Source: Hydrurus foetidus (taxonomy: Eukaryota). Taken from it: DNA of 41,421 nt. Each line of letters starts with the position of its first letter. The stretch's first letter is position 1. Both the position numbers and the translations under genes were made by a program. Below are positions 639 to 35,817 of the stretch, piece after piece. Under the pieces are notes generated by a model, which saw nothing but the letters and a program-made list of their open reading frames with translations, was not told the origin of the DNA and did no database searches. The stretch spans positions 1-41,421 of the forward strand of contig UYFQ01000855.1 in assembly GCA_900617105.1 (NCBI GenBank), in the 5' to 3' direction.

Positions 639-3600
639 TCACATCATGCTGCTGACATAATTCCTCGCTTTCTCCTTAACGGCTTCTTGTTGCGCCTCGC
701 TGCCATGGAGCTGTTCGAAAGAGAGGAACTTCTTGAAGGCCGCCTTCATGGCCTTCGCGCTGCTCTTCGACAATATCATACGTTCGAACAGCTGCCTTGC
801 TTGTACATGATTGCCGCACTTCACCTCTTTGTCGACGTAGACGTGCCATAAGTCAGTTCTCTTGGGATAGCTGCCGACGAGGTCTTCGAACACGCTTCTG
901 CCTCTGTCTTCGCTGCCCACGTCGTACTCGCACACAGCGTATCTGCAGAATTAGAGAAGGATGTCGTCATGATCACGCGTTATAAAATTGGCAGGTGAGG
1001 TATATGGGGTGTGTAGCGGTTGAATCACTGAATCAATCAAATGCAGCGTTAGGTCAGTGACTCACTTTATTAACACTTCGATGTGCTTGTGTCTGCTCAG
1101 AGACTGCATGGACCTGCTCAGTAGAATCTTCGCTCCATCGCTATCGCCTGTGCGTAACTTATAATGTTGGTACGCCATCCAAACCTTCTTACTGGTTTTA
1201 TACTTCTTGAGCGCCTTGTCGTATATTGCAGTGGCGCCCTTAGTATCTTCAGCCGCCTCGTAAGCCTCTGCTAAGTTTAAGTGAACGGTTTTGCCCTTGC
1301 TCTCCGAGACCGCTCTCTTGAACACACTGTCGAGAGAAGCCATGTCGCCGTACTTGTACTCCATATTCACGTACGCCATCCACACATTCAGTTTCTCGCC
1401 CTCTTCCTTGAAGTTGATGGACCGCAGGGCCTTCTCGGCTATTTGACGGGTGGCATCTATGTCTGCCTGTGACAAGTAGTGGCTCATGTACTGGACCCAC
1501 AGCAACGAAGAGGAAGGCTCAGCGAGCAGAAGCCGCTCGAAATCCTCCGGTCTCTCAGGCAGTGAGTTACCAGCTTCGAGAGAGATTTCACGCGCCCGTA
1601 TGGCTTTCTCCTCCTTGCGTCTCGCGCTCTCTTTCTGTCTGGTTCTCGATCCCTTGCTCGCATCTTCGACTTCCTCTTCTTCTTCCTCTTCGCTGTCATC
1701 TCCCGATCCTCCGTCCTCTGCTACAGCAACTGATGGAACGGCTCCTTTGGGCTTGAAGTCTGTCCACTGCATGCTGCTGCTGCTCCCTGCCTTCAAGACC
1801 TTGGGTGGCGCGAATATCGAGGGGCCTGCGTCACTGTCATCGTCACTATCATCATCTTCTTCGTCCTCGTCCTCCTCTTCTTCTTCATCGGAGATGTCCA
1901 GTACCACTACCTCGTCAGCGATTTTCAGCGGCTTCTTCTGCGATTTGGTGCCCTTCGGAGTAACACCCTTGTCTTCTGATGTCCGCACCGTTGCAGCTTT
2001 GATCATAGCGTCCATCTCATCGTCTGACTCATCGCCGTCAGCATCAAGCATCTTGATGCAACCATCGCTATCCTCCTCTGAAGCTGCCTCGTGATCTTCA
2101 TCACTGTCATCGTCATCAGAGTCGACATCGGCGTTGTCCTTCCCATGCTTGTCCTCTTTGGAGAAGAAGGAGGCTTTAAGCCCTAGAGAAACCTTCTTGC
2201 TCTGCCGGGACACAGACAGCACTTTGGCGCGAACGAACGCACCAATTTCGTACAATTCGGCCATGTCTTCGGACTCTTCACAAGCAGCGGATTTGCGACA
2301 GAGGCCAACGATGCTCGTTCCCTTGATGGTGACGTGCACCCCTATAGGGCTGATACGCAGGACCGTCCCTTCCACGGTGCTCCTCACAAATATTCCCTTG
2401 ATATCCTCCGCCGCCTTCTTGTCCCCTATGATCACGCTCTGTTTGAGGGTCAGCTTGGCGGTGCCTTCAGTCTGACTAGCTGAGAGCACGTAAGTGGAAA
2501 GCAGCCGTCCTACAGGGAAGAGTACCAGCGGTTCAGTGACGAAGTCATCGCTCAGATTGCGCAGTAGCACTTGCCCTGTCATGCCGTGCGACATGCGCAA
2601 GAAGCAGCCCTTGCCCTTCGTGTTGTAGTTAGCCACATATGCGGTTACCACAGACCCGTCCGAGGGAATGGGGTCAGGCTTAATCGATTCTTTTTTGTTC
2701 TTGCAAGCCTGCAGTTGTTTTAGAGTAAAATAGAGTTGGGCTAATTGAGTAAGGGAGAATGAGTGGTGATTGTTGGGTAGATGATGGAAGAGAGGGGAGC
2801 ATCGTGTAGTAGTAAGGGATGAATGTTCACGAACCAGTCTAGATGGCCTCAAAGAGAGCTCCACGACATCGAGAGAGTCCGTGGTGGACTTCCCATTAAC
2901 AGCGATGACCCGGCACTGCACTAGATCTCCGTGCTTTCTCCCATCAGGTAGTTGGATGTCTGCTTTTGATGAAGACGAGGAGGGCGCTTGGAAGATATGT
3001 GCGCAGTCCTGCCAGTCCGCAGGGTCAGACAGCTCCGTGATGCACACACGACCGACTTTGCCCCCTCCGAGGTACACTTGGAATGCGGGTGGCCGCGGAA
3101 TGCGGCCTCGTTGGAGGAAGGACCTCAGGTCCAAGATCCCGAATGTCAGTGCCCCAGGAGCACATGTCGCTGTGCCGTCCTGGAGAGCGGGAGACGCGAT
3201 GGCTGCATCGCATATGGTGCTGAGGGAGTCGGTGGTTGAGAGGCGGTGCTCGATAGTCGCCCTGCTGATGTTGATTCCCTTGGGCTTCGTCTTCAACGGG
3301 TTCTTAGAGTCCAGGTTGAATGACGTCACTTGGGACAGCACCCGCTGACCGACAAATGCTCTCTGCTTGAACAACTTCACGACTTCTTCATCGGAACTCA
3401 CGTCCATGAAGTGCAAACGAGTTGTTATGTATGGCGAGAAAGATACTATACAGCCCGTTTCCTCCATCTTCGTGATACAACCAGCGTACACACCACTAAG
3501 CTTCACGGCATTTTTACCGTACAGTTGAAGAAGAGGGCAGTGGCTGCTGTCCGCTTCCACCTCTGCCTCCCTCTTCCTCTTGCCGACAATTTTAGGTTCA

Positions 3601-6600
3601 TTAGGGTCAAATTTAAGCCCTCTGGACAGTCCGACAGTTGAAAGATTGATGATGATTTCTTCAGAGGTAGCATTATTCCCTTCAACTGAACCTTTATCAG
3701 CTACCACTTTTGCGTCATGACGAATCTGCTGTATGCGACCAAGTATACGTCCACCAACCGTTATGCCGTGGAAGGGGTGATTTTCTCCGATGCCCGACTC
3801 ATTACTTCCTCTGGTGGCGCGGCCAGTGAGCGTGTTGTGCATGTCATCAGTGCCGTCTGTTTGGTCGAGAGTGCCTGTCAAGTGGACTGTGGCCTTCACC
3901 TTCAGACCCATCACTTCCACGTAGTCGGGCTTGACAACCATTTCCAATGGCCCAATGCTGATCACCCGCCATTTCAATACTTGACCGAGTCGGATCGTAT
4001 CTAGAAACTTTTTCTTCAGTACCTCAGCATCGATGACTTTGCCGCTAGGAGAGGTTATGCTCGATTTCATGGATGCAAGGCTCTCATCTTTGTAGGCAAC
4101 ACCGGTGGATACGGACAGAATGGCGAAGGAAAAGTGAGGATTGGAGCCATCTTCCTCCGCAGAATGTGCTGCAGTTTCAACCCTCAGTGAAATCTCCTGG
4201 TTCTCCACGTATTCGGAGGGAGAGGGAGGAGAGGGGCAGTGGTAGTCGGCGACTGAAACATACGCCAAAACGCAATTGCCCACGGAGACCACTAAGTACT
4301 TGCCGTCTGACTGCACTAGCTGCACCTTCCCTTTGATGACGCTGCCTTTGACTGACAGAGCTGCAGCAGTATCTGCGAATAGAGCGGCCTCCTTCTTGCT
4401 CGGCCTCGATTTCGGGGACCCCCTTGCAGTCACATTCTTGATCAGCAGGGGGTCTAGAGTGACATCAAGGACGTTGTTCTTGAAATCGACATCCAATACG
4501 AGCACATTAACGACCTGTCCCACCTGCACCACTGCCTTCGAGTGGATCCCTCTAGCGAGCATCATCGTAGCCTGGTCGGCACCAGTCAGCACCAAGCCGT
4601 AGCTCTCCACAGAAGAGATCGTGGCTGACACGACAGAGCAGAGAGGAATATTCCTCCAGGATGGTGGTGACTTTCCTTCGACTGTAGCTTTCGCGGTGAG
4701 AGCTAGGTAGTTCTCTCGAAGTAATGCTTTGAGGTATGAGGTCGCACCGTTGGAAGGACCCACCATTCCGGTCTTGAAAGTCGCGATAACTCTTTCTCTG
4801 ACTAGGTCCACTCTTTGAATCACGCAACGCACGCTATCTCCGACGTTGAACAGCCCTTCTGGAGTGGCTAAAAAGCGGTCAGCGACATTCGGCCTAGGAA
4901 CCAGTGCGGTCAGCCCTTCTCTGAATCGGACCATCACACCGTAGCTTTCAACCTTAAAAATGAAACCAGCCACTAGTTGACCGGGGACTAGATCTGCTAC
5001 AGTGTCAGGCACGCTGATTGCTTCGACTGAGCTCAATCCTGTATCAGCATCGGCAGCAGCGGCTGCGAGCAGTAAGGGCTTGACGGAGAGGGCCAACACT
5101 TTCTTGCTCACTGATAAAACAAGGGCATTAACAATCTTGGTTCCAATGCTGTACTGGGCTGTCTTCTTGCCAGATGGTGTAAAGTATGCGTCTGCAGTTG
5201 ACGCAAAGTCGGCACTTTGGTGCTTCTGCATGGTGCCAAGCCTTCCGTCAGAGAGCCTCACCGACACTCCGTCGACATCCACTTTGTACACGATGCCCGA
5301 GACGAACTCTCCCACAGACCTCTTCCCAGAGGGAGCAGTGGCGAGTGTCTCTTGAAGGGGGGACTGCGCGCATATCAGAGAGGCCACGGGCTCTGTTGTC
5401 GCAGTGATGGCTGTCGCTGCTTTTGACTCAGGAGCGAGACAGCTGAGAAGGGACTGTACTTCAGCCGCATCACACGTGCCCAACGCTAGAGCAAGCACCA
5501 CCCTTGGATTCAAAATACCTCTAGAAGCTTTCTTTCCGTGCCCTGGGATCGCTTTGCACGTTTCCTTGCTCAGCACGAGACATTTGATCACTTGTCCTGC
5601 TCTGTAGGAGTCCGCAGCATCTGCCACGCCTTGGTGCGCCAGAATGCTCATGGGGATGGTGCCTCTGACTTTGTTGAAGAAGTTCACCTTCAGGCCCTTC
5701 TCGCTGACCCTGCCCACCACTCCAAGAGATAAGCCTCCCTCCGTTAAATCGTCGTATGAGAGAATGGGCGATTCCTTGTCGTCAACAATGCTTTTCTTCA
5801 TCGTGACCATGATCGCGCTGCCGTTCGCCTCCCAGACACGAAACTTGTGTGTCTGTCCCATTTTGAACCTTTTGTTTAGCTGCATTGTTGTGAGTGTGAG
5901 ACCAGTATCGCTGAGATGCAGTAGCGGACACACAGCCTGCACCTTCGCGCTGATCTTGATGACGAGGCCGAAGTCCTTGATGGCCGCGATGGAGGCCATT
6001 AGTGTCTGCCCCACAGATATCTTAGACCAGTGCAGCACTTCACTAGTGATGGTGGCTGTCACATTCGTACCCACCGACATGCCCTCAACGAGGTGATAAC
6101 CGATCACTTTTACGAGTTCCACCTGTTCCCCCACCTTGTACTGCTTCTCAATGTCGGTTTCGCTGACTTGTGCGGTCGCGGCGCTCCCCTTCGCTACCAC
6201 GCCTGAATCACCTTCGGCAGTTGCTGGATCTGTCTTACGGTTAGCCAGGGCAGACTTGTGAATAAACACTCCCAACACTGATTCGTTAATTTCCTTTCTT
6301 CTCTTCGCGTCAGCAGCCAGCATCTTTTTGTCCAATCTCGCCGCTCCCTTTACCCTACCTTCAGCAGAGCCATTGTCGGCAGCTTTGCTCACTATTATTC
6401 CCGATGTGAGGATTGCTTCAGCGTCAGCAGCCTCAAGGCCCCCTAAAGAGAGAAGCACCCCTTGCTTTTTCGCAACGCATTTTATGTCGAGATTGTTCAA
6501 TGTGGATCCCAACTCAGGCAGGTTGGCAGGAGCCCTCATGTCCAGTACGTGAGGGCGCATGGACATACGCACGCTGCGAGAGCCGTGATCCACAAACACT

Positions 6601-7916
6601 ATTCTAGCCTCATATGTTACACCGTCTTTGCCTTTGATGGCACTCATGGAGTTCTGCAGCTCCTTGGACGTCATGGGCCGCGAAAGAGAATAGTTGTCGA
6701 TGACCCCATGAAAGTCGTTCATGAACTTCACCAACAGTCCATTCTACGAAAGAGACAGGCTGAGATTAAATTTTGAAAGTCATGCCAGTAATTATAGAGG
6801 CGAAGATAGGCCACGCATACCTGAACAACTTTTTCGACCGTGACATTGAATTTCATTCCTGGAGACAGAGCGTTGAAGGGCAGCAGATCTCCCTTGGTCA
6901 CTGTCTCCGCGATCGCCTTTCGCTGTGCGCGCAGTGTTACAGAGCGGGCAGTCTCATTGACTGTCTCAACAATGCACTCTACAGGCTGGCCTATACAAAG
7001 ATTACTTCCGATGGGTGGGGTAGACGGATGCAGAGGATCTCCACTAATAGTTTCGCTTTTCGTTACCGCGGTAGCCTTCGATGTCGAGGAGCTTATGTCG
7101 ATGAATAGGGCCAGGGGCACTGCCTTAAATGGCAGAAAAAAAGTGATGTCACTGACACCAGCGGTAACGATATAGCCATGGTCCTCTTTACTGCTAATAC
7201 ACCCAGATATGGGAAATCCGGGTATCATATGTTTCATAGCGAGCCCCCTGTTCACAAGAGAAGAGCGCATTGAAAGCACGAGAGATTTTCGCCTCGAGGC
7301 AGTCTTTTCAATAATATCCAGGATGTAGCATCTGACGGGTTGCATGAGATTTACAAGTTTCCTGATATCAAGTGACTCAGTTTTACATGCGTCCTCTTTC
7401 TTACTGCCTATCTCTGTTTGAGATAACTTGTGCAGGGCATCCGAAATTTCTGATTTCGTCACAGTTCCGGCGACGCCGCCAGGGAGCGAAATGACAATGT
7501 TATTGTCATATATTTGAAGAACAAATCCAAGCGCTGACGTTCCAGTTTTGTATTTGGCAAACGACATATTATCTATTTTCACAGCTTTGCTGGTTCCTGA
7601 GGAGCGAGTCATGCCCAAACCCATCGCACCAGAGAGAGGTGATTTCAAAAGAGCTGCAGAGGTTATTGTCCCTTGAGTTTTTTTGCTCTGTGCTTTCGAT
7701 TGAACTATCTCTATTCTACGTGTCCTCTTCAATCCGAAAATATTTTCCTCCTGCAAGTTGACAATTACGCAATGTTACATCTGAATGTAAAGTTGCTTAG
7801 AATGAGCTTTATCAACGACGTCGATGAGTCATACTAACCTCATTTCGGACTCTCTTGTTCGTAGCTGTTACATTTTCCCCAGCACCGCTGCCTCGTGGAA
7901 AAGGGACGTTTGACAT
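639..7916 (-). CDS. RRP5: rRNA biogenesis protein RRP5/PDCD11 (S1 repeats plus C-terminal HAT/TPR), 5 exons, about 2287 aa
   Basis: Exons 7916-7839, 7750-6821, 6743-2835, 2708-1066, 942-639. All introns are GT-AG and the joined length is 6864 nt in frame. Protein has N-terminal FPRG motif, multiple S1-like repeats, an acidic linker and an RRP5-type C-terminus (PEDFERLLLAEPSSSLLWVQYM...EKLNVW...YPKRTDLW). Confidence 0.95.
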
Positions 7917-8125: not shown

Positions 8126-8347
8126 TGTTGATCAGAGTACATACACACAGTACGTACACGTCGCGTACACCGTACATACACACAGTACGTACACGTCGCG
8201 TCGTACGCTATCAGATTCAAACACATGCAATGTAGTCACAGTACCTCATAATGAATTCTCCAGTTTACACATAACTTACTTCCAACACTCGTGAAACACG
8301 TAAATTACTTTCACATTTGGTACGCAATCAAATCTGCGTCATCAACA
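8126..8347 (+). repeat. Copia-1 5' LTR (contains an internal 35-bp tandem duplication)
   Basis: Direct repeat of 13416-13637 with 3 substitutions in 222 bp. Confidence 0.97.
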
Positions 8348-8367
8348 GTTGGAATTACTGCATTGCC

Positions 8368-9422
8368 ATGTCCACTTCTCCAGTCACGCTCCTGGAAAAC
8401 CCTCGGCAAAATTTTAGACAATTTCATCGTGCCGTCGTTGCCGCATGTGGCGCCGAATGTCCCACCATATACACGCATGGACTTCTTGGGTTCATAGTCA
8501 GTGACACCCAATGGGCGCAGCTCCCCGGGAATCTGGTTCAACCTGACGACAACGAGCTTCCACCGATACTGCTTCCTCGCCCTAATCGGTTAGGGTTAGG
8601 GTTAGGGTCAATGCGAGCTCCCTCACAATCAAAGTATGGGAGCGCAAGCTTGCGGATAATCTACTCAGTACTGACAACTTGAGGCGACTAAAGCAATCAC
8701 TACTGGCCAGTATCACGCCGGCTGATCTTGTCGTGCTCCACGATCCGCTTTTCGGTTTGCTTAACGTCACAGCGTTATCCATCATGGAGCATGTTACTAT
8801 ATTACATGGTACACGGAATCAAACTGACTTCGCGCACCTACGCGCACAACTCCTTTCTACGATGACCTCTCAAGACTCAGTTCAAGATTTCATTGGGTCG
8901 CACCAACTCCTACACGATCAATTCGCAGAGTCCCACCAACCGCTTTCCGAGCTAGATAAATGTCATCACTTCCGTGAGGCAGTGCAGTCGCAAATACACG
9001 TCCAACATGCTATTGAATCTTATCTTGTCGCCCACCCATTGGTTGGCGACCAAACATTCTTGGCTCTCACAACCCATGTCATACAACAAGCCTCAAATTT
9101 CGCGCCAACAATCGCATCTATGGGATACTCTGCTAGTACAACCATCGAACGTCCTAACACCCCTTCAGAAGCATTTCTCTCTTCTCCAGCATTTGTCGCC
9201 ATGATAACCTCAGCTGTTCGTGCGGCTCAACCCGCTCCTCGCAAAGCTCGACGCGAGCGCGCGCCCACACAGCCAAAGCCGAGAACATACTGCTTCCAAC
9301 ACGGTTATGATTCGCACAACGGTATTGACTGCCGTCATATGACTGCACACACATATACACCGGCCCAAAAAATTGCTCAAACACACTTGGATGTCACCGG
9401 CGGCTCCATCAACCGACTCTGA
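8368..9422 (+). pseudogene. gag: Copia-1 gag, frameshifted at the telomeric-repeat tract
   Basis: ATG 8368 frame reads to ...LLPRPNR. After (TTAGGG)3 the gag continues in another frame (NASSLTIKVWERKLADNLLSTDNLRRLKQ...) to a CoDi-type knuckle (YCFQHGYDSHNGIDC) and TGA at 9420-9422. Confidence 0.85.
8590..8607 (+). repeat. Interstitial telomeric repeat (TTAGGG)3
   Basis: Three exact TTAGGG units, preceded by CCCTAA (8580-8585) and TCGG. Confidence 0.9.
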
Positions 9423-12400
9423 CATGAAGGGACGGATAGCGAAATTGATTCTTCCGTGCACGCTCACTGTAATCTAACTCAACCAATTTCGTCATCCGCC
9501 CCCCCTCCTTTATGTGCTGATACTGGCTCCACACACACGCTCTTAAGAGCATCCGATGCCACACACATCGTTCGCACTACGTCTACAGTCGATACTCTCA
9601 CAGTTATGCTTCCTAACGGACACTTAATTACATCCATTGGCATCTGCCATCTACAATTGCCGCATCTTCAGTGCCCCTTCGTCGCGCATGTTTTTTCAGA
9701 CTCAGCACTCAACACTTCACTGCTCTCCATTGCCCAACTTTGCCGACTCGGATGCATCGCCACATTCACTTCCACTGAGGTCCACATTACCATCGATCAG
9801 TCCACTGTTCTTCATGGCTTCAAGTTGCCCAATGATTCCTTCTGGTCTATTCCGCAGCCTGCTCTATTCACCTCGCCCTTCATCGCCAATGCCACACAGG
9901 CACTTCCAAACGACGCTGCGTTCATTAAATTTGCGCGCGCTGCGCTAGGGAGCCCTGCCATATCCACATTAACTCAAGCAGTCAGACGCGGATATTTACA
10001 TTCGTACCCATGTCTAACGTCAAAAATGCTTGCAGCACATCCTCCGATGTCCATAGCTACCGCTAAAGGCCACCTCGACCAACACCGTCAGGGGCAACGA
10101 TCCACACACACTCCTATCGACATGTTCGAAATCGAGGACACTTCAGACATTGACAGCATTAACTGCTCATCCGTACAGTCGGAACATACAGTTTCACAGG
10201 CATACACCCGAATTATCCTGGCATCATCTACACTACATTCAGATTTGACAGGTCGATTTCCCGTTACATCACGCACTGGTGCGCAATACATGTTTGTATC
10301 CGTCCTCGATGGTTATATCCACGTGGAACCAATGAAAACTCGACATCACCAAGAGTATATCACCGCCTACAAACGAACATTAAACTTCTTCGGTCAATTT
10401 GGACGTCGACCATCATTCCAGAGGCTTGATAATGAGACATCCGCGCCCCTCGAAACCTTCGCTCTTCAAAACAATATAAGCATACAATACTGCCCACCAC
10501 ACACGCACCGCTCGCTTAAGGCAGAGCGTGCCATTCGCACTTTCAAAAATCACTTCATAGCCACTCTATTCACAGCAGCACCAGATTTTCCACTCACACT
10601 CTGGGATGACATGCTTCCACAAATGGAGATATGCCTCAATCACCTACTTCCCTACGCTCCTAACGTCGCTGTGTCAGCATATGCTGGCCTCCATGGCGGC
10701 GCCTTCGACTTCTCAAAACATCCCATTGCTCCAATAGGAACGCGACTTCTCATTCACGACAAACCAACTGCACGCACATCGTGGGCGCCTCATGGAGTCC
10801 CAGGATTCTATCTAGGCCCAGCCCTTCAACACTATCGCTCGTACCGAGCATGGTCCACCACCACTCACACAATGCGCATTACAGACACTGTTGCGTGGTT
10901 TCCACACGACTTCGCTATGCCCGGCCCCTCCATGCACGACATACTCGTTCGCACCATCGATGACTTGCAAGAAGCTCTGCACAAATTCTCGGCATCCGCT
11001 CCGTCTGTACGCACTACCACCCAGCCCGCTTCGCTAATCACAACCATAGCCAACAACTTGCACATCATTGCCAACATGCATGCATCTCCCCAGTCGTCAG
11101 TCTTCAATAATCCCGCTTCAGAACAGAGGGTGTCGCCGTCACCACCCTCCGTCGCACACGACGGCACTATCGCGCCTGAGTCTATCCGTCCACTACACGC
11201 TCAGCCAATTCGCCCGTCTGTGCCACTGCCTCCACAACTATACACCACACCTGTCGCCAACAATACACTCAATCTCGATGACACAGGCCAACCCCTCACA
11301 TACGCGACAGCCAAATCAGGCAGTAATGCTCCTCAATGGCAGATCGCTGAAACAAAAGAACTCGATCGCCTTCTCAGCACACAAACCATTCGACCTATTC
11401 TTGTTGCCAATCAGCCACATTCGCGACGGCGCGATACAACCTATTACAATCCACAGACCAAGGAAAAAGAGAATGCCTCTGGTGAGCGTACATTTCGCAT
11501 CAGAGGTACTATAGGCGGCGACAGAGTCAACTACCCCGGCCCCACTACAGCACGCACTGCAGCTATGCCGCTCGTCAAAATACTCATACATTCAGTCATT
11601 TCTGACAACGCCAATTGGCTCACCATCGACATAAAAGACTTCTACCTCAACACGCCTCTCCCGCGCCCTGAATACTTGCGCATACCCTCCAAGTACCTTA
11701 CACCTACCATCATAACCAATTATGCCCTACAGTCATATCTACACAACAATTCCATCTTATTTGAAGTCAATAAGGGAATGTACGGGCTTCCGCAGGCAGG
11801 ACTCCTTGCGCAACAGCGTTTACTTCACCATCTATCACAGCACGGCTACCACCAGACAGACACCTCATGTCTTTTCCGACACACGTCTAACGGCACCGTC
11901 TTCTCCTTAGTCGTCGATGACTTCGGCGTCAAATACACAAACAAGAAAGGAGTCGACCATCTCATCCATACACTCGAAATGCTATATTCCATCACTGTCG
12001 ACTGGGCTGGAGCTAAATATCTAGGTTTTTCTATTGCCTTCGACAGAACACTCCACACTGTCACGCTCACCATGCCGGGATACATCGCCAAGGTGCTTCA
12101 ACGTTTCGCTCCGTCTCTCACGAACGGTGCCAACTCGCCTGCTGTGTACATTCCTCCACACTATGGAATAGGACTACAGACATCCACAGTCGACACTAGC
12201 ACCCCACTCTCTCCAACCCAAACAACAACGCTGCAAGAACTAGTTGGATCACTCTTGTACTACGCGCGTGGTGTAGACGTCACCATACTCCCTGCAGTAA
12301 CACACCTCTCCTCGCTACAAGCGCATCCCACACAAGATGTACTCCAAGCCTCCCACCGCTTACTTGCCTACTGTTCCAGATTTCCAAACAATGCACTACG

Positions 12401-13208
12401 CTACCACGCTTGCGATATGACCCTTCACATCCAATCGGACGCTTCGTACCTGTCTCGTCCTCATGCACGCTCAGTTGCAGGTGCCATTTTTTACTGAGGC
12501 AATGTCAACCAACCTACATATATCAACGGCTCCGTCCACTCACTCAGCACCATCATACCATCAGTCGTCGCTTCTGTAGCTGAAGCTGAATATGCTGCAC
12601 TCTTTCTTGCTGGTCAAGAGGGAGTATGGCTACGCCAAATTCTTCACTCTCTCGGGTACCCGCAAAACCCCACTACAATACTCTGCGACAACCAATGCGC
12701 CGTAGGCATTGCCTTGGACACAATCAAGCCAAAACGAACAAAAAGCATAGACATGCGCTTTCACTGGATGCGAGACCGCATCGCACAAAAGCAATTCACA
12801 GTCACGTGGTGCAAAGGTGCTGACAATCTAGCAGACTTTTTCACTAAACCATTACCCGTCCACGTTCATCAATCCATCATGCCTCTTCTAGTACACACTC
12901 CTCCAGCATCACCTGACGCCCTAATTACACCGTCAGCAATTCGTGCAACAAAATGGCAAAGCCACCAGACGCATCTGGCAGCGGAGCCCACGTATCAAGT
13001 GGACCTCCACCTCACAGTGGGGAGGTGCGGGGAATTCATTGTCATGCCACCGACAACCCTGCTACCACATGTCAACCCTAGAGTTGAACTCATGGCCCCT
13101 CGGATTATAATTGAATACGTATATCCAATCACGTCAGCGCTCCCTGCTGACAATTCCAAAAATATTCTGTCCAGTTTTCACCGAACAGGCAGCCCATGTT
13201 CCACATAG
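9423..13208 (+). pseudogene. pol: Copia-1 pol (protease, integrase, RT, RNase H) with a nonsense codon in RNase H
   Basis: Motifs ADTGSTH (PR), SDLTGRFP / RLDNE / AERAIRTFKNHF (INT), DIKDFYL / YGLPQAG / VVDDF (RT), SDASY...AEAEY...ADFFTK (RH). An in-frame TGA at 12495-12497 (FY*GN) separates ORFs 9456-12497 and 12714-13208, which share one frame. Confidence 0.93.
12950..13142 (-). ncRNA. tRNA-Tyr-like head plus structured 3' domain, module B (putative Pol III/SINE-like RNA)
   Basis: Minus strand: A-box-like TGACGTGATTGG, D-stem ACGT/ACGT, anticodon-like loop TT-ATA-AT, B-box GAGTTCAACTC (13091-13081), multi-stem domain 13067-12976, then T4 at 12953-12950. The cloverleaf is degenerate. Confidence 0.45.
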
Positions 13209-13352
13209 TACCGTCTCACACGACGGGTGCGGAGGATTCTCGCACTTTTCAGCGCGCCGACACCCCTACTACCGAAAGCTGAATCACACTGGGACTCGAG
13301 CCGGCGGCCTTTCGATTACAGCCGGTTATTTAAACCAACTGCGTCAACACTC
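13158..13352 (-). ncRNA. tRNA-Tyr-like head plus structured 3' domain, module A (putative Pol III/SINE-like RNA)
   Basis: Minus strand: A-box-like TGACGCAGTTGG (from 13346), loop CT-GTA-AT, B-box GGCTCGAGTCC (13302-13292) at canonical tRNA spacing, structured domain 13272-13205 with a GAAA-capped hairpin, then T5 at 13162-13158. Confidence 0.45.
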
Positions 13353-13406
13353 GTTGGTATTACGACCGCTAATTACATATAGATACGAGACACACATCAT
13401 CTGTTT

Positions 13407-13415
13407 GAGAGGGTG
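13407..13415 (+). promoter_or_regulatory. Copia-1 polypurine tract
   Basis: GAGAGGGTG immediately 5' of the 3' LTR. Confidence 0.8.
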
Positions 13416-13637
13416 TGTTGATCACCGTACATACACACAGTACGTACACGTCGCGTACACCGTACATACACACAGTACGTACACGTCGCGTCGTACGCTA
13501 TCAGATTCAAACACATGCAATGTAGTCACAGTACCTCATAATGAATTCTCCAGTTTACACATAACTTAGTTCCAACACTCGTGAAACACGTAAATTACTT
13601 TCACATTTGGTACGCAATCAAATCTGCGTCATCAACA
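13416..13637 (+). repeat. Copia-1 3' LTR
   Basis: Direct repeat of 8126-8347, followed by TSD CGGCT. Confidence 0.97.
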
Positions 13638-19100: not shown

Positions 19101-19110
19101 CAGTACAGTA

Positions 19111-20057
19111 TACCAGTGCCGGTAATAACGCGGTTTCGGTAAAAACGCGGTTATTCGACCCGGCAGGTCCGATATCTCTCCAAATTCTTCATGAAAAAGT
19201 TTTTGTCAAACATTCTCACAGGTAGTTCCTATTTACTACGGTGACTAGACTCTAGCGCGACTTTTTTTAAATTTAAAATAAATTGCAAGAAACACTTTAT
19301 GTGTAGCTTGGAGGATTTCGATTTGCAATAGCTTCATCAAACTCGAAAACGAAACTAGAGGAAAGTCACCACATTTTAGCTGAAGCATAGCAAAATAATT
19401 GGTCAACAAATTTTAAACTGAATCAGAACCAACCACTTGCAGAATATGAATCAATAGGTGTTATTTAATTTCTTTGAACTTCCGTTAAAAATGCTTTATC
19501 CTCATCTTGGTTTCACCAGCCAGCAGGGTAATTGAAAAGTGCTACTTCCATTTCGGCAGTCGATTCTTTTGATAACCATAATGTCCTTCCTGATATTCCT
19601 ACTCTTTTAATTTCGCTCCAATTCATCTTGATTGCATCTGAAGAATGGTCATCAGTTTCAGAGACCAAAAATGTGCCTTTTTCACGTATTTGGGATGCGA
19701 TTTCCCAATATTTCAACGAAAAAGGCACATTTTTGGTCTCTGAAACTGATGCATCTCAGTGACTATCGTGATTTGTACGAAATCCTCGCGTATCCATACT
19801 AATATGACTGCTGCCTACAAGATAGAATACCTAACTCATACTCTTGCTTCATCTATATCCGACATTGGTGAATCGCCAAAAGTGAATAATGTCGATCTCG
19901 TGATGAAATCATCAATTTTAGAAAATTATAATAATCGAAACGGATGTAAAACTATCGAAGTATCTGTGAGAATGTTTGACAAAAACTTTTTCATGAAGAA
20001 TTTGGAGAGATATCGGACCTGCCGGGTCGAATAACCGCGTTATTACCAGCGCTGGTA
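19111..20057. mobile_element. Non-autonomous TIR element (MITE) with TA flanks, Tc1/mariner-like
   Basis: TIRs 19111-19221 and 19964-20057 (94 bp; the left copy has a 17-nt internal duplication). Ends TACCAG...CTGGTA with TA on both sides. No intact transposase. Confidence 0.85.
19650..19751. repeat. Perfect 34-bp inverted repeat (hairpin) inside the MITE
   Basis: CATCAGTTTCAGAGACCAAAAATGTGCCTTTTTC (19650-19683) is the exact reverse complement of 19718-19751. Confidence 0.95.
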
Positions 20058-20255
20058 TACGGTATACGCCCTCGGAACGAGGTGCCCCCTCTTTATTTCC
20101 CCCAAAGGGATAGAGCACGATCCGCCGGATTCCCCAGCGAATTCTCAAGAGGATTCAACTTCGATCTGAAGTCTGAATGAAGCCTTCAAGATATAATACG
20201 GAATATTCCGCAAATAAACACCATATTATACGACTTCATACTCAGTACTTTACCG

Positions 20256-25007: not shown

Positions 25008-25214
25008 TTTTGGAGATAATATCGTAGTTTATGACACGGACACAATCAGTGTACTTATGCACTCGTACGGTCGTACGGATTAATTTGTGTGTGTGTGTGT
25101 GTGTGTGCGTACATGTGTGACGACGATGAATGGACCCGTGCATCGTCTCTGTACTTCAAGCGTAGTGTAGAATGTATTTTGTTGTTGCGTTGAAAGGGAC
25201 TCGGGGACTTCAGC
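25008..25214 (+). repeat. Copia-2 5' LTR, upstream piece (contains a (TG)n tract)
   Basis: Near-identical to 35481-35684. Confidence 0.95.
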
Positions 25215-25361
25215 GGGAGCAGGTATCCAGGCCAACGAACGAGGCCAAAAGCCAGGCCAGAGATAGTACAGCATTCACATTTCCCACATCCATCACTTCA
25301 CTTGTTCATCTCAGTCTTCAGTCTAATTATCTTTCCAATAAATCAGCAAATTATTTCGACT

Positions 25362-28300
25362 ATGGAAGAATCCGATATGATTCCAGTGGACAAGACTTTC
25401 ACTAGTCCGCCAGTGGAGGACCCTATCGCAAGTTTGCCACCTTTTGAGGAGGCCAGAAAAAGAATCAATCTCGCTTTGAGAGACGTGAAACAAAATAATG
25501 TCCCGCTTGAACGATTTCCCTGCCCGATTTTCCATGGGTGTCGACTGAGTTCTGTTGGTGCTGCCAATTTTAAGACAGTGGAAACTTTGTTTTTGCATCT
25601 ATGTAGCGTGCAGGACCAGAGGAGATGGTCATCGAAAAGTGGATATATTACTTCTAGAGGCATCAGAGCACACAGAGGTGTCTGTTCGAGATCAGGAACG
25701 CAAAAGCACAATCTGATGCATCGCAATTTGAGAACTTCACCTAAATGCAAGTGTATGGCCTCATTTACGCTTTTTGATGACGGCAGCGTGGTCTTCAAAA
25801 ATGAACACAATGAGCTTTGCCTACCAGATCCAAATATGGGTAATGATGGCTATGTCTTTAGTGCAGGGCTATCACCAACGAAAAAGCAAGCAATCATTGC
25901 TAATATCTCAGACATGCTGAGTGACTACGGCACAACACCTGCTGCTGCAAGGAAACAAATAGAACATTCTTTGGTGAAAAGTGGTGACACTGGATTCGGC
26001 TTAGGTAAATTTTTTATGATCAACCACCATATATGTACTTCAACATTTAACTAATCAGCACAGCTATTGGCACTTTCAGGTCAACTGTGTGCGCCTCCGA
26101 CGTCGTTTTCCAAAAGTATTATCCTCAGCGCGAAGAAGTCCACTGGATTTATTTGTGGGTCCAATGTAGACTCTTTGAATGAGTTCCTACAAAATTTAAT
26201 TGATGAAGAATTGCCCCACAGAATACTTCACGATAACGACAACGACGTCATCAAGGCTGTAAGCTTCCATGATCCGAAATGGCTCCCTGAAAAGGCAATA
26301 AACAATCAACTACAGTTCAATGTCGCTGTGTCTGATGTCACTTTCGGTATAACATCACCTAGAAGTGGCATCAGCAAATGGTCCTTTATAACACTTCTCA
26401 CTCCTGGTCACGAAGCTTTCGTTGTAGTAGCTTCAGCTATAACTCAAGAAGACACAATGACTTTTATGAATGAGATGGACGTGTTGCTGGACCTTTATCC
26501 AAACTTGAAGTATGACAGCTGGGTTCTCATAGTCGATGGGGATCCTGCGAAGTTTAAAGCGGCAAGAATCAAATTTGAGAGGGTCCGTATCATCCTCTGT
26601 TTGTATCACGCAACAGAGAATATCAAAAAGCACCTTGGTCACCTGTGTCTCACATTGAAGACTGAAACTCCAGGCAAGTTACCTTGGTCACCTGCAACTC
26701 ACATCAGTTGAGATGGCAGCTTCTCTAATAAGTTTTGTCCCTGCTTTCATTGTCAGGCATTCCCCTAATCAAGAGCCGCTGGATTCAATGCGATTTATGC
26801 TCGAAGTGGCGCAAAATATGCAACGAAAAAGAATTTCCTGAAACGTTTGTTTGCAACTCTGATGGTCAAGATGCTCCGTATAATGTTTGCGATGCAGATG
26901 TGGAGGAAGGACTTCCGAAGTTGTTCGAGGCGGGTCAGGATAACTTAGATGATGAGGTAATTAAGATTGAATGTGACATGCTTGTCCAATTGCGCTATTA
27001 ATTGTGCTACACATGGATGCTTTGAAACCAATTACAACTCTAACTTGCCATCACATCCGATAGGATTGTCTATTACTCACCAGACTAAGCACAGAGCTTA
27101 CATCTATAACATGGTACACTATTTGGAAGTACATACGGACTGCATCTAATTACTTTTGAAATTTCCAAAGTCAAAAACATATTTGGACTTTCTATGGCGA
27201 AACGTTTCAACCTGGGCAACGTGTGCATTCACGTGGGAACTTGATTATGGATTTCAAGCGAGTTCTATGTAAGAGGGTATGATAGAATTTCACTAATACT
27301 ATGATTGTTATGCCACTTGTCATCTCCACCATTGCTGTCAGAACACTGTTATGTAATTGTAACGATTATCTTGGATGAACTTTTTACATATTACTTACGA
27401 AATGATTTATAATGTTGTAGGAATACACTCAACCCTCAAGCTCAACCTGAGAAATGTTCTCATTCCGCTCCACAAGACGATTCCATTTTTTAGGGAATCG
27501 TTGACAAGGCGTAAATTGAATGTCGACAGAAAAAATTCCGGTGCATCAGTGAAATCACTACTAGAATTGGCTAGTAAGGCAGGATTTACGAGTTTCTCCA
27601 AGATTTTGACGTCCTCGCTGACAGACGAGGGGATCAAGCTCACGTTGGATCAATTTCACAAAGGTATCTGTTACAGAGTAGAGAAATTAGCAGATTCTTC
27701 TGCCATCGATGAGTGCCTACAGACCATCTTACTGAGGAGAGGACCTTCATCTGAAAGGTTTCGCTGTTTAATTACCGTAGTGGTTGACAGCAACAGCGGA
27801 GAGAGGAAATTCGTGGAAGGTGACTATTATAAAGTTAAATCGCGCTCAATCAATGGATCAACGGATATCGTTCTCATCAGCTCCGGGGGTAATATTGCAT
27901 GCACTTCACCTTCCTACGCAAGATGGGGCATCCCGAGCAAGCATATTTTTGCTGTCTTCTATGATGGCGGTATCTGCATAAATATGAAGCAGCATTTTCA
28001 CCCTGTATATCATCTACCATTTATGAACGGTATCGCTGTCGACTTCGTAGCTGACTTCACAGCTACAGCTGATATTCAAAACGGTCAAGCATTCTCGACT
28101 GACTCCACAACTTCTTGGAATTGGGCCCAACAAACATCCTCAGATTCTTGGGAGTTAATTGGCTTAGGGGGAGCTGAATTTAGTTCAGTGGCTCATCCAA
28201 CTGCCAGATCCATAAGTAAGGCACCAGAGAGCAGCATTGAAAGGACAAAGAAGACTATCAATTACCTAGTCCCGTACATAAACAACAGTTTGGAAGAGAG

Positions 28301-28610
28301 AAAGGTGTTTTTCCTATATTACGAAGGAGTGCTGAAAAGGTATGATCATTTGACAGCAACGCATTTTAAGGACATCGACTCTTTCTCTCACCAGCGATTC
28401 TTTAACATGTTCAGGAATGCCGAGAGAGCTGTGATGGAATCAAATGCTCATCGCAGAAGTCTAGGAATGGATGCTCTCGATCCAACACTTTCTGCTGAAA
28501 CCCAACCGATTGTTCCGGCATTGTCTACGTTGACCGTTGGAAGAGGCAAGAAACGTCTCAAACCAGCTGTCGAAGCCCGCAAAAAAAGAGTCATGAAGAT
28601 CTGTAAATAA
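25362..28610 (+). pseudogene. MULE transposase with FAR1/WRKY-like DNA-binding domain, embedded zf-CW and degenerate SWIM; disrupted
   Basis: Exons 25362-26004, 26080-26673, 26757-26956, 27064-27276, 27421-28610 (possible extra in-frame intron 28340-28414). Motifs CSRSG...KCKCMASF...EHNE, SDVTF, VDGD, CLYH, SSM*EGIHSTLK. Frameshift near 27150 and TAA at 27270-27272. Confidence 0.85.
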
Positions 28611-28689
28611 GTGCTTGTGTAAAACCTATTTTTAATTTAACGAAGAAATTCATGTGAGCTTACTGCAAGAGAATCTTTTAATCATGTAC

Positions 28690-30050
<1,361 letters not shown>

Positions 30051-30757
30051 ATGCGGTTGGGGATTTATTAAGTGTAGGAATGCAACATCACAGAATTCCC
30101 TCTAATATATTAGCTAATCCAATATATAAGGTGGATTGCAAGCAAAGAAAATGCCATGAAATGTAAGGAGTCTTGAAAAATCACTACGAAATTCAGTTCA
30201 GATTGATTTTAGCAGATCAGATGAAGAGGAAACTCTTAAAGTCACAACATTCCATCGCTCGCAGAATGCTAGCTGCCCACTCTAATTATCACGAATAATG
30301 ACAGGCAAAACAGTCGATCAAGTTAGTGAGAAAATAAAGCGACCACGAGGACATTCTAAATAAATGCCAACCTTCCATGCAAGATCAGCGACTGGATTCT
30401 TCTTGACAATAGTCCTCAAGAGCTTCATCCTGGTAAAAGAGAGAGAACTCGATGGATGAGAGTGCAAGCTATGATAATCAAAATCCATTAAATCTTGTAC
30501 CTTTGCTTCTGAGGGGGAAAGAATCATCGAATCGCAAAAAGAACTGCCACCAAAGCCACCTGATAGAGCGAGCCATCCTGGAGAGGACGTGATGCTGCCA
30601 AGCTTCACAGCCTTTGAATTAGTTGTGTTCTATCGATAAAGGAACTATCGTCGAGTGAGATCAAGGGATGAGGATTACTGCCACTGAATGCTGCACTATC
30701 TCTGGCCTGGCTTTTGGCCTCGTTCGTTGGCCTGGATACCTGCTCCCGGGTTTCAGC

Positions 30758-30823
30758 AGGGATGAAGCACAGTCAATTAACAAGTGTTTACTGCCATTCC
30801 AGAGCTTATTTCACGAGTCCTGA
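30758..30823 (+). repeat. Copia-2 5' LTR, downstream piece, truncated
   Basis: Matches 35685-35750, then jumps straight into gag coding sequence. Confidence 0.92.
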
Positions 30824-33800
30824 ACTATACGGGATAGTTGGCATGTTCTTCACCACAAATGTGAGATACGAGCTTCCGAGAGTTTCTTACAGGGATTACC
30901 CTGCAGACTCGTCATTGGAAAGCTCCAGTTCCGAAGAAGATGACGAGATAGTCGAAGGTCAACAGGAACAACCGCCTGACCCAGAGACCGTGGCGTACGC
31001 CGCCGCGAGGCCTGCTCGCATCGCCGCCAGACAGGCGAGGAACGAGAGGAGGCGTAAAGCGTCAGAACGCTCTAGAGCAAAATTTAAAAAAGATGATTAC
31101 ATACAGAGAAAGAGGGATATCAAAACGCAGAAAGAGAACGAACGTACAATGTACCCGATGATGTGGAAGCGCATGTCGCTGCTATCACAAAGTAGGGTGC
31201 GGGAAGAGGAAAATTTCAAGACCGCATATGACACCCTGGACTGTGTCATGCTGTGGACACTCATAAGAAGGACTCACCTCACACACATGTACGGGGGCGA
31301 TGAGACACTGCAGGAGTACAACCAACACGAACAGGAGAGTAAGTACAGCTCAATGAGGCAAGGTGAGAGAGAGCGCATTGTCACCTTCAAGAACAGATTC
31401 GATGAACAGGTGACCGCGAACGCTGCTGTCGGAATCGCCGCGGTGACAGAGTCGAAGCGAGCATTGGATTTCCTAGGGAAGCTCGACACTCGAAGGTACA
31501 AGGTCATGCTAGACGACATGAAGCACGACGCCCTACGACGCAAACCAGGGGCGTTCCCAACCACGCTCGCCCTAGCCTTCCACATCGCCTCAGAGTGGAA
31601 TGACCGAGTCCCTGCATCCACACCCACACCAACACCGGCGGGTGCGAACGCAGCGTACGTGACTGAGGGAGTCCACGTCACAGCGGCCAAGGACCCGGAA
31701 AAGAAAGCGGGGAAAGCCGGAGGTGGCAGCAAGAAATCCTTAGCAGACGTGGGGTGTAGCTCTTGTCACTGCTGATGAAATATGCTGCTTCTCCAGATTC
31801 GATGTGCTGTTAGACAACGAGGACTCGCTCAACATATTCAATAACGCTGAACTACTTACTGACCTGAGGAAGTCGCAGTCGACAATTCGAGTGAGCGGTA
31901 TCCAGCAAGGAGGAGGAGTGAGCGTAGATCGGGAAGGGGAGTTCGGAGAGTTTGGCACGGTGTACTACAGTAGTTCGGCATCGGCAAACATCCTGTCTTT
32001 CGCGTCGCAGGTCGACTCAGGTGCGTCGATCAGATATGACCACCTGAGCGACTGCTTCACTCTGAGGCCGAAGAGCAGCACGAGGATCTATCGGTTCGGG
32101 AGAAAGCGAGTCATAGGAAGCGAGGGGAGGTTCTACTCGTGCGACTGGAGAGATGTCGAGCACGACAAAGCGTTAGTAACTACGGTTGTTGAGAATCTGA
32201 AAGCATTTACGAAACGAGAGATCGAGCAGGCGAGACGAGCTCGTGAGCTGCTCGCTAGGATGGGCTTCCCGACGGTGGAACAGGCGATGTCGATCGTGAA
32301 CAGCGGAAGTAGTTTCGACATTACGGCGAGAGATTTCCAGATCGCTGATGCGATATGGGGCAAAGATATAGCCTCTATAAAAGGGGAAACAGTAAAGAGA
32401 GCTACTGCTATCGCTGATATTACAGTCAGCACGAAATTAATGCAAAGGGATCAGGTGCTGTCTATCGACATTATGTTTATAGACAAACTAGCGATACTAG
32501 TTGGGGTATCTACACCACTGGGACTAACTATTGCATATAGCCTAAACACAGCAGATCTTACAAAGCCAGCAAGGACAGCAGCCCAAGTGAAGATCGGGAT
32601 AAACCATTTTATCGCGGTCCTCGCTGCACAAAACTTCAGGACCTCCATAATCATGAGCGACGGGGAGGGGGCTGTCAAGAGCCTCATTGACGAGCTGGGA
32701 AGGCTCGGCGTGGAGGTTGACGTGAGTGGAGCCGGCGGCCACGTCGCTAGGATTGAGAGAAAAATTCGCATTGTTAGAGAACGGGTACGATGTCACGTAG
32801 CGTACCACCTTCCGTTCACACTATCGACGGTGGGTATCGCCATGCTCATACTGTACTGTATATCCAGGCTGAACTACGAACCGGCCGGATTACGGGAATG
32901 GGGCCCGAGTCCGCGTGAAGCATACATCGGTAGGAAGCCTGATGGTAAGAGAGACTTTAGATGCTCGTTCGGAGATTATGTGCAATGTACCGTTCCTAAC
33001 ACTGATTCAGGATTCAAGAGCCGAACCGAGGACTGTGTGGTTATGCTCCCCCTCGGAAATCGCACGGGCTCAGTGAGAATGCTTTCGCTCAGCACAGGAA
33101 GACTAGTGAACAGGGACCAATTCAGAGTGCTACCGATGCCAGAGTCCGTTATAAAGAGACTAAATGAACTCGCGCATGCAGATGGTAGAGTGATCTGTAC
33201 GCACGGCCTACGTCGTACGAGCAGTACGGGAACGCTGCCAAGGGGCTGCCTGACACGGTGGAACCCAACGTCAACAACGGTGTGGATCCATCGATAGAAC
33301 CTCTAGATGACGACCGTGAGACTAGAAACGAAGAGGTAGACAACGGTGACCAGCATCAAGACAGTGGAGGAGAATTGGGTGAACAACAGTACGACAACAG
33401 CGAAGCACCGAACGAAGTAGACCCGAGGGACAACAGTGAACCATATGAGGAAGCGGTACAGGCCGAACAACCTGAAGAGCACGACAATGATATAGATGAT
33501 CTGGTCGATAGTATGAACCGGATGCGAGCTGGACCGAGGGACCAAGTTGAAGATCCCACGGGGGGACTAGATGAGAGGGGTATACCGGAGGACTACACAT
33601 CGACAGACGGGACACGAGACGAGTACAGCGAAGCGAGAGGAGCAGTGAGCCGAGCGACGGAGCTGCTCGCTGCACCTGCACCGCACTACGGGATAAGTAG
33701 ACATGAGGTGATGAACTTCTTTAGGAACGGTGGTGGAACCGCACTTCTAACGCGCAACTACGACGGTGACGGTGCAGACTGGGGAGACTATGTACTGAAC

Positions 33801-35414: not shown

Positions 35415-35480
35415 TTGAATTATTACGACAGCATATGCGTGATGTGTGAATAGAAATGATTGTGATGTGGCGTAGGGGTG

Positions 35481-35817
35481 TGTTGGAGATATCGTAGTTT
35501 ATGACACGGACACAATCAGTGTACTTATGCACTCGTACGGTCGTACGGATTAATTTGTGTGTGTGTGTGTGTGTGTGCGTACATGTGTGACGACGATGAA
35601 TGGACCCGTGCATCGTCTCTGTACTTCAAGCGTAGTGTAGAATGTCTTTTGTTGTTGCGTTGAAAGGGACTCGGGGACTTCAGCAGGGATGAAGCACAGT
35701 CAATTAACAAGTGTTTACTGCCATTCCAGAGCTTATTTCACGAGTCCTGATCGAGTGACCTTCAACCACAGTACAGCGAGAGGCGTACGTGTGGGCCAAA
35801 CCGAAGATCCGTCAACA
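35481..35817 (+). repeat. Copia-2 3' LTR (337 bp)
   Basis: TGTTGG...GTCAACA, preceded by PPT and followed by TSD CTCGA. Confidence 0.95.

What the first reader, a model, noticed from the sequence alone, without database searches (positions are those of the whole stretch)
12950..13352. Two diverged antisense tRNA-Tyr-like plus structured-RNA modules in the 3' region of a copia element
Seen: between the RNase H core and the PPT, the minus strand has two tandem, mutually similar units of about 190 nt. Each begins GAGYGYTGACG..TTGG (A-box-like), has a Tyr-type anticodon-like loop (GTA in A, ATA in B) and a B-box at tRNA spacing (44 nt after U8 in A; 46 nt in B with a 2-nt longer D loop). Each continues into a shared domain GTAGYAGGGKTGTCGG...TGAMAA...GAATYCYCCGCACC...TGTGAG..GG and ends near a T4-5 run. 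The 3' domains fold into multi-stem structures (GGGTG-T-CGG/CCGCACCC, CGCGCT-GAAA-AGTGCG, GTCCAC/GTGGGC) whose G-U pairs favour the minus strand. The two modules are far more diverged from each other than the LTRs (3/222), and I see no TSD or poly(A) around them. Inference: the element may carry its own Pol III antisense ncRNA cassette, analogous to the 5S-derived sequence in Cassandra TRIMs. It could act in priming, self-regulation or boundary function. An old dimeric SINE is the alternative.
Basis: partly seen in the sequence, partly recalled or inferred. Interest (0 to 1): 0.85.

Follow-up and report, generated by a model that had tools for sequence, protein, structure and literature searches.

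The report
Antisense structured RNAs inside a retrotransposon
One branch of copia jumping genes from freshwater microbes carries one or two backward-facing 190-base units that keep tRNA-gene promoter signals and a shared base-paired fold, so they are likely small RNA genes of the element's own, possibly decoys against host silencing, though no transcript has been seen.

Summary
The two units are real. Module A (13352-13158) and module B (13142-12950) lie on the minus strand between RNase H and the PPT of a copia element. They share 115 of 184 aligned bases. A has the best A-box/B-box pair in the window, and both end in a hairpin plus T4-5. They are not tRNAs: there is no cloverleaf, no ARAGORN or Rfam hit, and 'Tyr' is not established. 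The head refolds into a 10-bp hairpin kept in both units by compensatory changes; helices shared by A and B exist only on the minus strand. Related copia families carry one or two units at the same place. In one contig the unit is 91% identical to A while pol is 79% identical. Carriers form one clade, and 0 of 88 more distant relatives have the unit. A priming role is rejected: the lineage appears to self-prime without the units. Best reading: an element-encoded Pol III RNA under structural selection, likely acting in trans as a decoy. Transcription and function are untested. The scan earlier noted a smaller antisense tRNA relic in a gypsy element and self-priming diatom copia on other DNA.

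The parts
13158..13352 (-). Module A: about 195-nt structured unit, tRNA-derived head plus conserved 3' domain plus T5
   Evidence: shared by related families
12950..13142 (-). Module B: about 193-nt paralogue of A; its 3' part overlaps the variable C-terminal tail codons of pol
13335..13346 (-). A-box of module A (1 mismatch to recalled consensus)
13292..13302 (-). B-box of module A (1 mismatch), 44 nt after the A-box start
13125..13136 (-). A-box of module B (2 mismatches)
13080..13090 (-). B-box of module B (2 mismatches), 46 nt after the A-box start
13318..13342 (-). Hairpin P2 of A (10 bp), replacing the D and anticodon arms; counterpart in B at 13107-13132
   Evidence: 10 of 10 pairs kept in A and B, 3 double and 4 single changes
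13227..13272 (-). Conserved core of A (GTAGYAGGGKTGTCGG ... GAATYCYCCGCAC)
13025..13065 (-). Conserved core of B
13158..13188 (-). Terminal hairpin and T5 of A (candidate Pol III terminator); counterpart in B at 12950-12981 with T4
8126..8347 (+). 5' LTR; 5-bp TSD CGGCT flanks the element
8348..8357 (+). Non-tRNA primer site, complementary to LTR 8277-8286 (7 bp in this LTR, 10 bp with one G-U in the 3' LTR copy 13567-13576)
9423..12893 (+). pol (integrase-RT-RNase H order, copia type), with an in-frame stop at 12495-12497 in this copy
13407..13415 (+). Polypurine tract
   Evidence: same motif before the LTR in 68 of 88 related loci
13416..13637 (+). 3' LTR

Best explanation
The two units are tRNA-derived, minus-strand modules that one copia clade keeps at a fixed place before the PPT, and each is likely a separate RNA polymerase III gene making a compact folded RNA of about 190 nt that would act in trans as a protein-binding decoy against host silencing. 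Shown: paralogy, promoter boxes, T runs, loss of the cloverleaf, a replacement fold kept by compensatory changes on the minus strand, retention across families, and higher conservation than pol in one contig. Inferred: Pol III transcription from the A-box to the T run (about 0.6). Inferred: backward orientation keeps the fold out of the genomic RNA, so whatever binds or cuts it spares the genome. Guessed by analogy with viral Pol III RNAs: the decoy role (about 0.3).
For: A/B-box pair of A best in the window, 0 of 1000 shuffles; the peptide of relative P0007 forces the canonical T in the B-box where A deviates (inference from codons). Each unit has its own boxes and its own hairpin plus T run. 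P2 keeps 10 of 10 pairs with 3 double changes; all ten pair in 0.3% of permutations. Three helices of 7 bp or more are shared by A and B on the minus strand (null mean 0.43; 4 of 500 column shuffles reach 3) and none of 6 bp or more on the plus strand. Of 8 substitutions listed in A, 5 are unpaired and 2 keep a pair on the minus strand only; of 4 more forced by relatives' peptides, 3 keep P2 pairs, 2 of them on the minus strand only. Same contig (X7 record 28): 9 of 102 differences in the module versus 130 of 605 in pol, p=0.002. Reading frames shift across the module between families, so the conservation is non-coding. The 7 rows with module-derived tails lie in one clade (97/94), and the 12 rows whose ORF runs into the PPT lie outside.
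Against: No transcript or Pol III occupancy is shown. B's boxes alone are not significant (81 of 1000) and its strand preference by z-score is slight. One listed substitution (13362) and one peptide-forced change (13285) break predicted pairs. The first core pair appears broken in the B-type units of P0125 and P0250 (codon inference). The second conservation comparison, across different contigs, gave p=0.07. Covariation rests on two full sequences; several helix registers were set by hand, and one search showed only 40 of 416 difference rows. No stem exceeds about 11 bp, so a Dicer-substrate decoy is doubtful. Most of the lineage does without the unit (0 of 88 loci). Nothing here tests the decoy role.
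Confidence: 0.45

Rival explanations
1. Cis-encoded antisense regulator. The RNA is made, but it works by pairing with the element's own genomic RNA just upstream of the PPT to limit copy number or to tune reverse transcription.
For: It is perfectly complementary to its own element by construction. Variation falls in loops while stems are kept, as expected for such RNAs (recalled from plasmid antisense RNAs).
Against: It does not explain why A and B keep the same unpaired core letters at about 62% overall identity, nor why the unit was duplicated.
Confidence: 0.15
2. Self-cleaving ribozyme or nuclease-recruiting fold of an undescribed class. It would cut antisense transcripts running in from the 3' LTR, or mature the Pol III RNA, and so avoid double-stranded RNA.
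For: Two further helices shared by A and B (13349-13342 with 13262-13255; 13303-13297 with 13196-13190) use the most conserved letters and would cross each other as pseudoknots. Backward orientation would spare the genome from cleavage.
Against: No Rfam match. By eye it lacks the recalled hammerhead, HDV-like, hairpin, twister and group I cores. Setting P2 aside, two such helices arise in 8% of shuffles. Forcing the first costs 5-6 kcal/mol. The P0007 peptide fits the second helix only in part (inference).
Confidence: 0.13
3. SINE relic or hitchhiker. A tRNA-derived SINE inserted once, was duplicated, and is carried passively or swapped between families by recombination.
For: A tRNA head with A/B boxes and no cloverleaf plus an unrelated body is SINE anatomy. 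A 9-nt direct repeat flanks the pair. Recent exchange could also make the module more alike than pol.
Against: No poly(A); the repeat depends on a base private to this copy. Changes between families respect the fold. The matching contigs and peptides whose context could be read are copia. No third copy in 41 kb. The host genome could not be searched.
Confidence: 0.12
4. DNA-level element only: B-boxes recruit TFIIIC as a boundary next to the 3' LTR or as an integration landmark, or the fold acts in the single-stranded minus cDNA.
For: Boxes are kept in both units; the minus strand exists as single-stranded DNA during reverse transcription (established knowledge).
Against: A boundary needs no covarying helices. 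With DNA parameters the strand difference is small (A -28.6 versus -24.0, B -31.5 versus -29.0 kcal/mol). A cDNA fold needs no promoter or T runs.
Confidence: 0.1
5. Primer RNA. The antisense RNA primes minus-strand synthesis in place of a tRNA.
For: The primer site is not tRNA-type, and the 10 nt just before A on the minus strand (13353-13362) match its complement at 9 of 10 (chance about 0.05).
Against: 29 of 55 related loci without modules show a duplex of 10 bp or more between primer site and their own LTR, with many different sequences. The window's LTR has the same feature. The leader of A varies in other families, and B has no such match.
Confidence: 0.03

Closest known systems
TRIMp3 elements: Helenus (tRNA-like), Cassandra and Ajax (5S-derived); PMC10886601
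   Same: LTR retroelement carrying an RNA-gene-derived Pol III promoter with conserved boxes and no working tRNA fold.
   Different: There the piece lies inside the LTRs of short non-autonomous elements and is proposed to make the template RNA; the paper calls a functional RNA unlikely. Here it is internal, antisense, in a pol-coding copia, tandem, with its own T runs and a covarying fold.
Bovine leukemia virus Pol III miRNA cluster (PMC12498455, abstract) and foamy virus Pol III miRNAs (search listing)
   Same: A retroelement genome encoding small RNAs from internal type 2 Pol III promoters with degenerate boxes.
   Different: Those are pre-miRNA hairpins of vertebrate retroviruses; BLV B-boxes lie downstream of the terminator. 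Here the B-box is inside the unit, stems are 11 bp or shorter, and the unit is multi-branched.
Gammaherpesvirus 68 TMERs (PMC4337559, abstract), EBV EBERs (listing), adenovirus VA RNAs (recalled)
   Same: Tandem Pol III RNAs of roughly this size with a tRNA-like promoter head and a structured body.
   Different: DNA viruses of vertebrates; TMERs yield miRNAs from pre-miRNA hairpins. No sequence or Rfam similarity was found here.
tRNA-derived SINEs (SINE2)
   Same: tRNA head with A/B boxes, lost cloverleaf, unrelated body.
   Different: No A tail, no convincing TSD, fixed position in one copia clade, structure-preserving change.
Self-primed LTR elements: Tf1/sushi, and plant copia TAR (Houba, Osr-1); PMC6317226 passages
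   Same: The host element's primer site is complementary to its own LTR.
   Different: Concerns the element, not the modules; here a CoDi-like copia lineage of freshwater microbes.

Membership tests
tRNA gene (Tyr) | Cloverleaf with acceptor, D, anticodon and T stems | tested here: not met
   ARAGORN 0 genes; no Rfam tRNA hit at E up to 10; folds give a 10-bp hairpin across the D and anticodon arms
tRNA gene (Tyr) | Tyr anticodon register and identity | tested here: inconclusive
   GTA/ATA and TGT/TAT registers both fit the spacing; the relaxed ARAGORN call for B is Ile(TAT) at a noisy threshold; no host tRNA set was available
Type 2 Pol III gene | A-box and B-box at tRNA spacing | tested here: met
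   A: 0 of 1000 shuffles; B weak alone, 81 of 1000
Type 2 Pol III gene | T4 or longer run at the 3' end | tested here: met
   T5 at 13158-13162, T4 at 12950-12953
Type 2 Pol III gene | Transcript and Pol III/TFIIIC occupancy | not testable with these tools
   needs stranded RNA and ChIP data from the host
TRIMp3 (Helenus, Cassandra, Ajax) | RNA-gene-derived promoter inside the LTR | tested here: not met
   modules lie at 12950-13352, outside both LTRs
TRIMp3 (Helenus, Cassandra, Ajax) | Short non-autonomous element without pol | tested here: not met
   5.5-kb element with RT and RNase H
tRNA-derived SINE | A-rich or simple-repeat tail and TSD | tested here: not met
   no A tail; the 9-nt repeat rests on a private base within pol codons
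tRNA-derived SINE | Dispersed copies outside the LTR element | tested here: inconclusive
   none in the window; contexts seen are copia; no host genome held
Pol III miRNA cassette (BLV, TMER) | Pre-miRNA-length hairpins | tested here: not met
   predicted hairpin stems are 5-11 bp
Known self-cleaving ribozymes and riboswitches | Match to an Rfam model | tested here: not met
   only E above 0.6 matches to miRNA, snoRNA, CRISPR and lncRNA models
Known self-cleaving ribozymes and riboswitches | Cleavage or ligand binding in vitro | not testable with these tools
   bench assay
Ty1/copia LTR retrotransposon (host element) | LTRs, TSD, PPT, integrase before RT, RVT_2 | tested here: met

The most novel reading that the evidence does not exclude
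The modules are a new class of pseudoknotted RNA, built on a captured tRNA promoter, that a copia clade expresses antisense as a ribozyme or silencing suppressor: the first RNA gene of its own in an autonomous copia retrotransposon.
Probability: 0.2. Interest if true: 0.9.

Novelty: new variant of a known kind. Interest (0 to 1): 0.65.

Why it matters
Pol III RNA genes are known as accessory genes of vertebrate retroviruses and DNA viruses, and as promoters in the LTRs of small non-autonomous elements. In ten literature searches I saw no listing of a structured antisense Pol III RNA inside a pol-coding copia. If it is expressed, a retrotransposon has an RNA accessory gene with an undescribed fold. 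Sister lineages lack it, which gives a natural control for how elements evade silencing in microbial eukaryotes.

Tried and rejected
No whole genome is held, so dispersed copies could not be counted. No RNA holder listed. The exact core pattern found 0 matches in metagenome, genome and viral contigs; the P0007 peptide later showed a 1-nt longer spacer that the pattern would miss. A 16-nt half pattern gave 33 viral hits, none with the second half. RNase H queries found no relatives in viral contigs. blastn against phages gave 3 short chance matches and against plasmids none. blastn, nhmmer and a two-sequence covariance model found no module in 88 loci with 28-67% RNase H identity; 59 of the 68 with a PPT have a gap of 170 nt or less, too short for a unit. 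The DNA of close relatives could not be fetched, so no deep covariation test was run; variation among families comes from the rows shown and from peptides. A coding role for the 152-codon open frame over A was rejected because frames shift between families. Resemblances to glmS, RNase P, HDV-like, hairpin, VS and group I cores were considered from recall and dropped: no Rfam support and key residues missing. Atlas searches did not settle the host. The 9-nt flanking repeat was rejected as a TSD.

Full report
The element. The finding lies in a 5.5-kb Ty1/copia element. LTRs are at 8126-8347 and 13416-13637 and differ at 3 of 222 bases; the TSD is CGGCT. pol has an RVT_2 domain and an in-frame stop at 12495-12497 in this copy. 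No genome is held. Runs holding the element are freshwater sediment, biofilm and water metagenomes plus one coded organism. Two named relatives, at 51-53% RT identity, come from the chrysophytes Spumella and Dinobryon, and one Atlas cluster names diatoms. The host is therefore likely a freshwater stramenopile; this is inference.

The observation. Module A (13352-13158) and module B (13142-12950) align with score 45, which 0 of 2000 dinucleotide shuffles reach. Most of the signal is in the 3' domain (1 of 2000) and less in the head (54 of 2000). 115 of 184 aligned columns are identical. The A-box and B-box of A, 44 nt apart, have 2 mismatches to a recalled consensus. That is the best pair in the window, and 0 of 1000 shuffles match it. 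B's pair, 46 nt apart, has 4 mismatches and is matched by 81 of 1000 shuffles. Both units end in a hairpin and a T4-5 run.

They are not tRNAs. ARAGORN finds nothing. At a threshold that yields 72 calls in the window it labels B Ile(TAT) and leaves A uncalled. Four Rfam searches at E up to 10 give no tRNA or other credible family. The loop letters fit a Tyr register and a Thr/Ile register equally well, so the parent tRNA is open.

A replacement fold on the minus strand. A folds better on the minus strand (z -3.1 versus -0.8); B only slightly (-2.1 versus -1.8). Hairpin P2 spans the old D and anticodon arms, and its register is fixed by conserved flanks. It keeps 10 of 10 pairs in both units with 3 double and 4 single changes; permuting B's 3' letters gives ten pairs in 0.3% of trials. 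Over 38 pairs in the helix sets I counted, 15 are unchanged, 11 change on one side, 11 on both, and 1 is broken. Several of those registers were set by hand from the folds, and I left out an alternative register of one hairpin in which 2 of 5 pairs break. An unbiased count finds three helices of 7 bp or more shared by A and B on the minus strand (null mean 0.43; 4 of 500 shuffles reach three) and none of 6 bp or more on the plus strand. Two of the three are long-range and would cross as pseudoknots: 13349-13342 with 13262-13255, and the B-box strand 13303-13297 with 13196-13190. Alone these two are only suggestive (8% of shuffles give two), forcing the first costs 5-6 kcal/mol, and the P0007 peptide fits the second only in part.

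Relatives. Contigs of four DNA runs laid at 80% likeness cover A with many divergent contigs but B with few (depth is no copy number). In 3 of 4 runs a contig joins 12937 to 13187 with 64 other letters, which is a family with a single unit. In one such contig (X7 record 28) the module part differs at 9 of 102 positions and pol at 130 of 605 (p=0.002); a comparison across two different X5 contigs gave p=0.07. One search showed 40 of 416 substitution rows. Of the 8 in A, 5 are unpaired, 2 keep a pair on the minus strand only and 1 breaks a pair; of 5 insertions, 3 fall between unpaired bases and 2 at loop edges. Of 92 pol tails examined, six read into module-like sequence: P0123, P0125, P0003, P0124 and P0004 into a B type, and P0007 through a whole A type. 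A search with the open frame over A returned 3 proteins, all module peptides; P0245 runs on into the PPT and LTR. Frames shift across the module between families, so the conservation is not of protein. Four changes forced by these peptides were mapped: three keep P2 pairs, two of them only on the minus strand, and one breaks a loop-closing pair. Matching contig lengths (4782 and 5641) in the clusters of P0003 and P0244 suggest a second family with two units (inference). Peptides of P0125 and P0250 suggest that B-type cores vary more and lose one core pair (inference).

Distribution. On an RNase H tree of 37 rows, the 7 rows with module tails fall in one 16-row clade (97/94). The 12 rows whose ORF runs straight into the PPT lie outside it; 18 rows could not be labelled. 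None of 88 more distant loci (28-67% RNase H identity) shows a module by blastn, nhmmer or covariance model. 59 of the 68 with a recognisable PPT have no room for one. This fits one gain followed by duplication.

Priming is explained otherwise. The primer site abuts the LTR and is complementary to LTR 8277-8286. In 29 of 55 distinct module-less loci a duplex of 10 bp or more joins the primer site to the element's own LTR, with many different sequences; some of the other 26 end before the site. This is the Tf1-type signature, predicted for plant TAR copia in PMC6317226 (passages). The 9-of-10 match of A's leader to the primer site (chance about 0.05) varies in other families.

Mechanism. Shown: paralogy, boxes, T runs, lost cloverleaf, minus-strand covariation, clade-wide retention, conservation above pol in one contig. 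Inferred: each unit is a Pol III gene (about 0.6), and selection acts on the RNA fold (about 0.7). The backward orientation would keep the fold out of the genomic RNA. I commit to a trans-acting, protein-binding decoy against host silencing, by analogy with viral Pol III RNAs, at about 0.3 for that specific role. The stems are too short for a pre-miRNA or a Dicer substrate, and the conserved unpaired core points to a tertiary fold. Rivals are a cis antisense regulator, a new ribozyme, a SINE relic spread by recombination, and a DNA-level boundary.

Comparison with what is known. PMC10886601 (first sixth of the text and passages) describes tRNA- and 5S-derived promoters in the LTRs of non-autonomous TRIMs and judges a functional RNA unlikely; this finding fails two defining features of that group. 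PMC12498455 (abstract) describes Pol III miRNAs in bovine leukemia virus, and PMC4337559 (abstract) the tRNA-miRNA hybrids of gammaherpesvirus 68. EBERs and foamy virus miRNAs were seen as search listings only; VA RNA is recalled. PMC5445492 and PMC3601003 were read as passages on priming. No supplements were opened; those of PMC10886601 hold consensus sequences that I did not compare. Ten searches listed nothing on an internal antisense Pol III RNA in a pol-coding copia; subscription journals and Repbase were not searched.

Verdict. The feature is real and under structural constraint, the Tyr label and the priming idea fail, and expression is untested. It is a new variant of a known kind, interest 0.65.

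Noticed in passing
window 8277-8286, 8348-8357, 13567-13576; L040-L112: Tf1-like self-priming signature: primer site complementary to the element's own LTR in this element and in 29 of 55 related loci, with many different sequences. The 5' LTR here has a variant at 8279 that shortens the duplex to 7 bp.
   Followed up: partly
window 8587-8609: About three and a half TTAGGG telomere-like repeats interrupt gag, suggesting a break healed with telomeric DNA.
   Followed up: no
window 12495-12497 and 12958: This copy is defective: an in-frame stop between RT and RNase H and a 4-nt difference near the pol end that the laid runs do not share.
   Followed up: partly
window 25019-35687: A second copia with 199-nt LTR copies about 10.5 kb apart, containing an inserted element with 64-nt inverted ends (25214-25277 and 30685-30748), a MULE-like domain and long ATC and GTGA repeats. 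No module match in it.
   Followed up: no
window 1062-7774 (-): RRP5 gene; the copia is inserted about 350 nt upstream of its first open frame.
   Followed up: no
window 19104-20064: MITE-like element with 91-nt inverted arms and an internal perfect 34-nt inverted repeat.
   Followed up: no
window 13427-13497 (LTR): The LTR holds a tandem duplication of about 35 nt that some relatives lack.
   Followed up: no
L113-L121: Copia RNase H relatives sit in contigs of nine bacterial MAGs, probably eukaryotic contamination.
   Followed up: no
L068, L069, L075, L076, L080, L082, L098, L108: Other relatives have long, unrelated, less structured 3' spacers of 270-530 nt before the PPT.
   Followed up: partly
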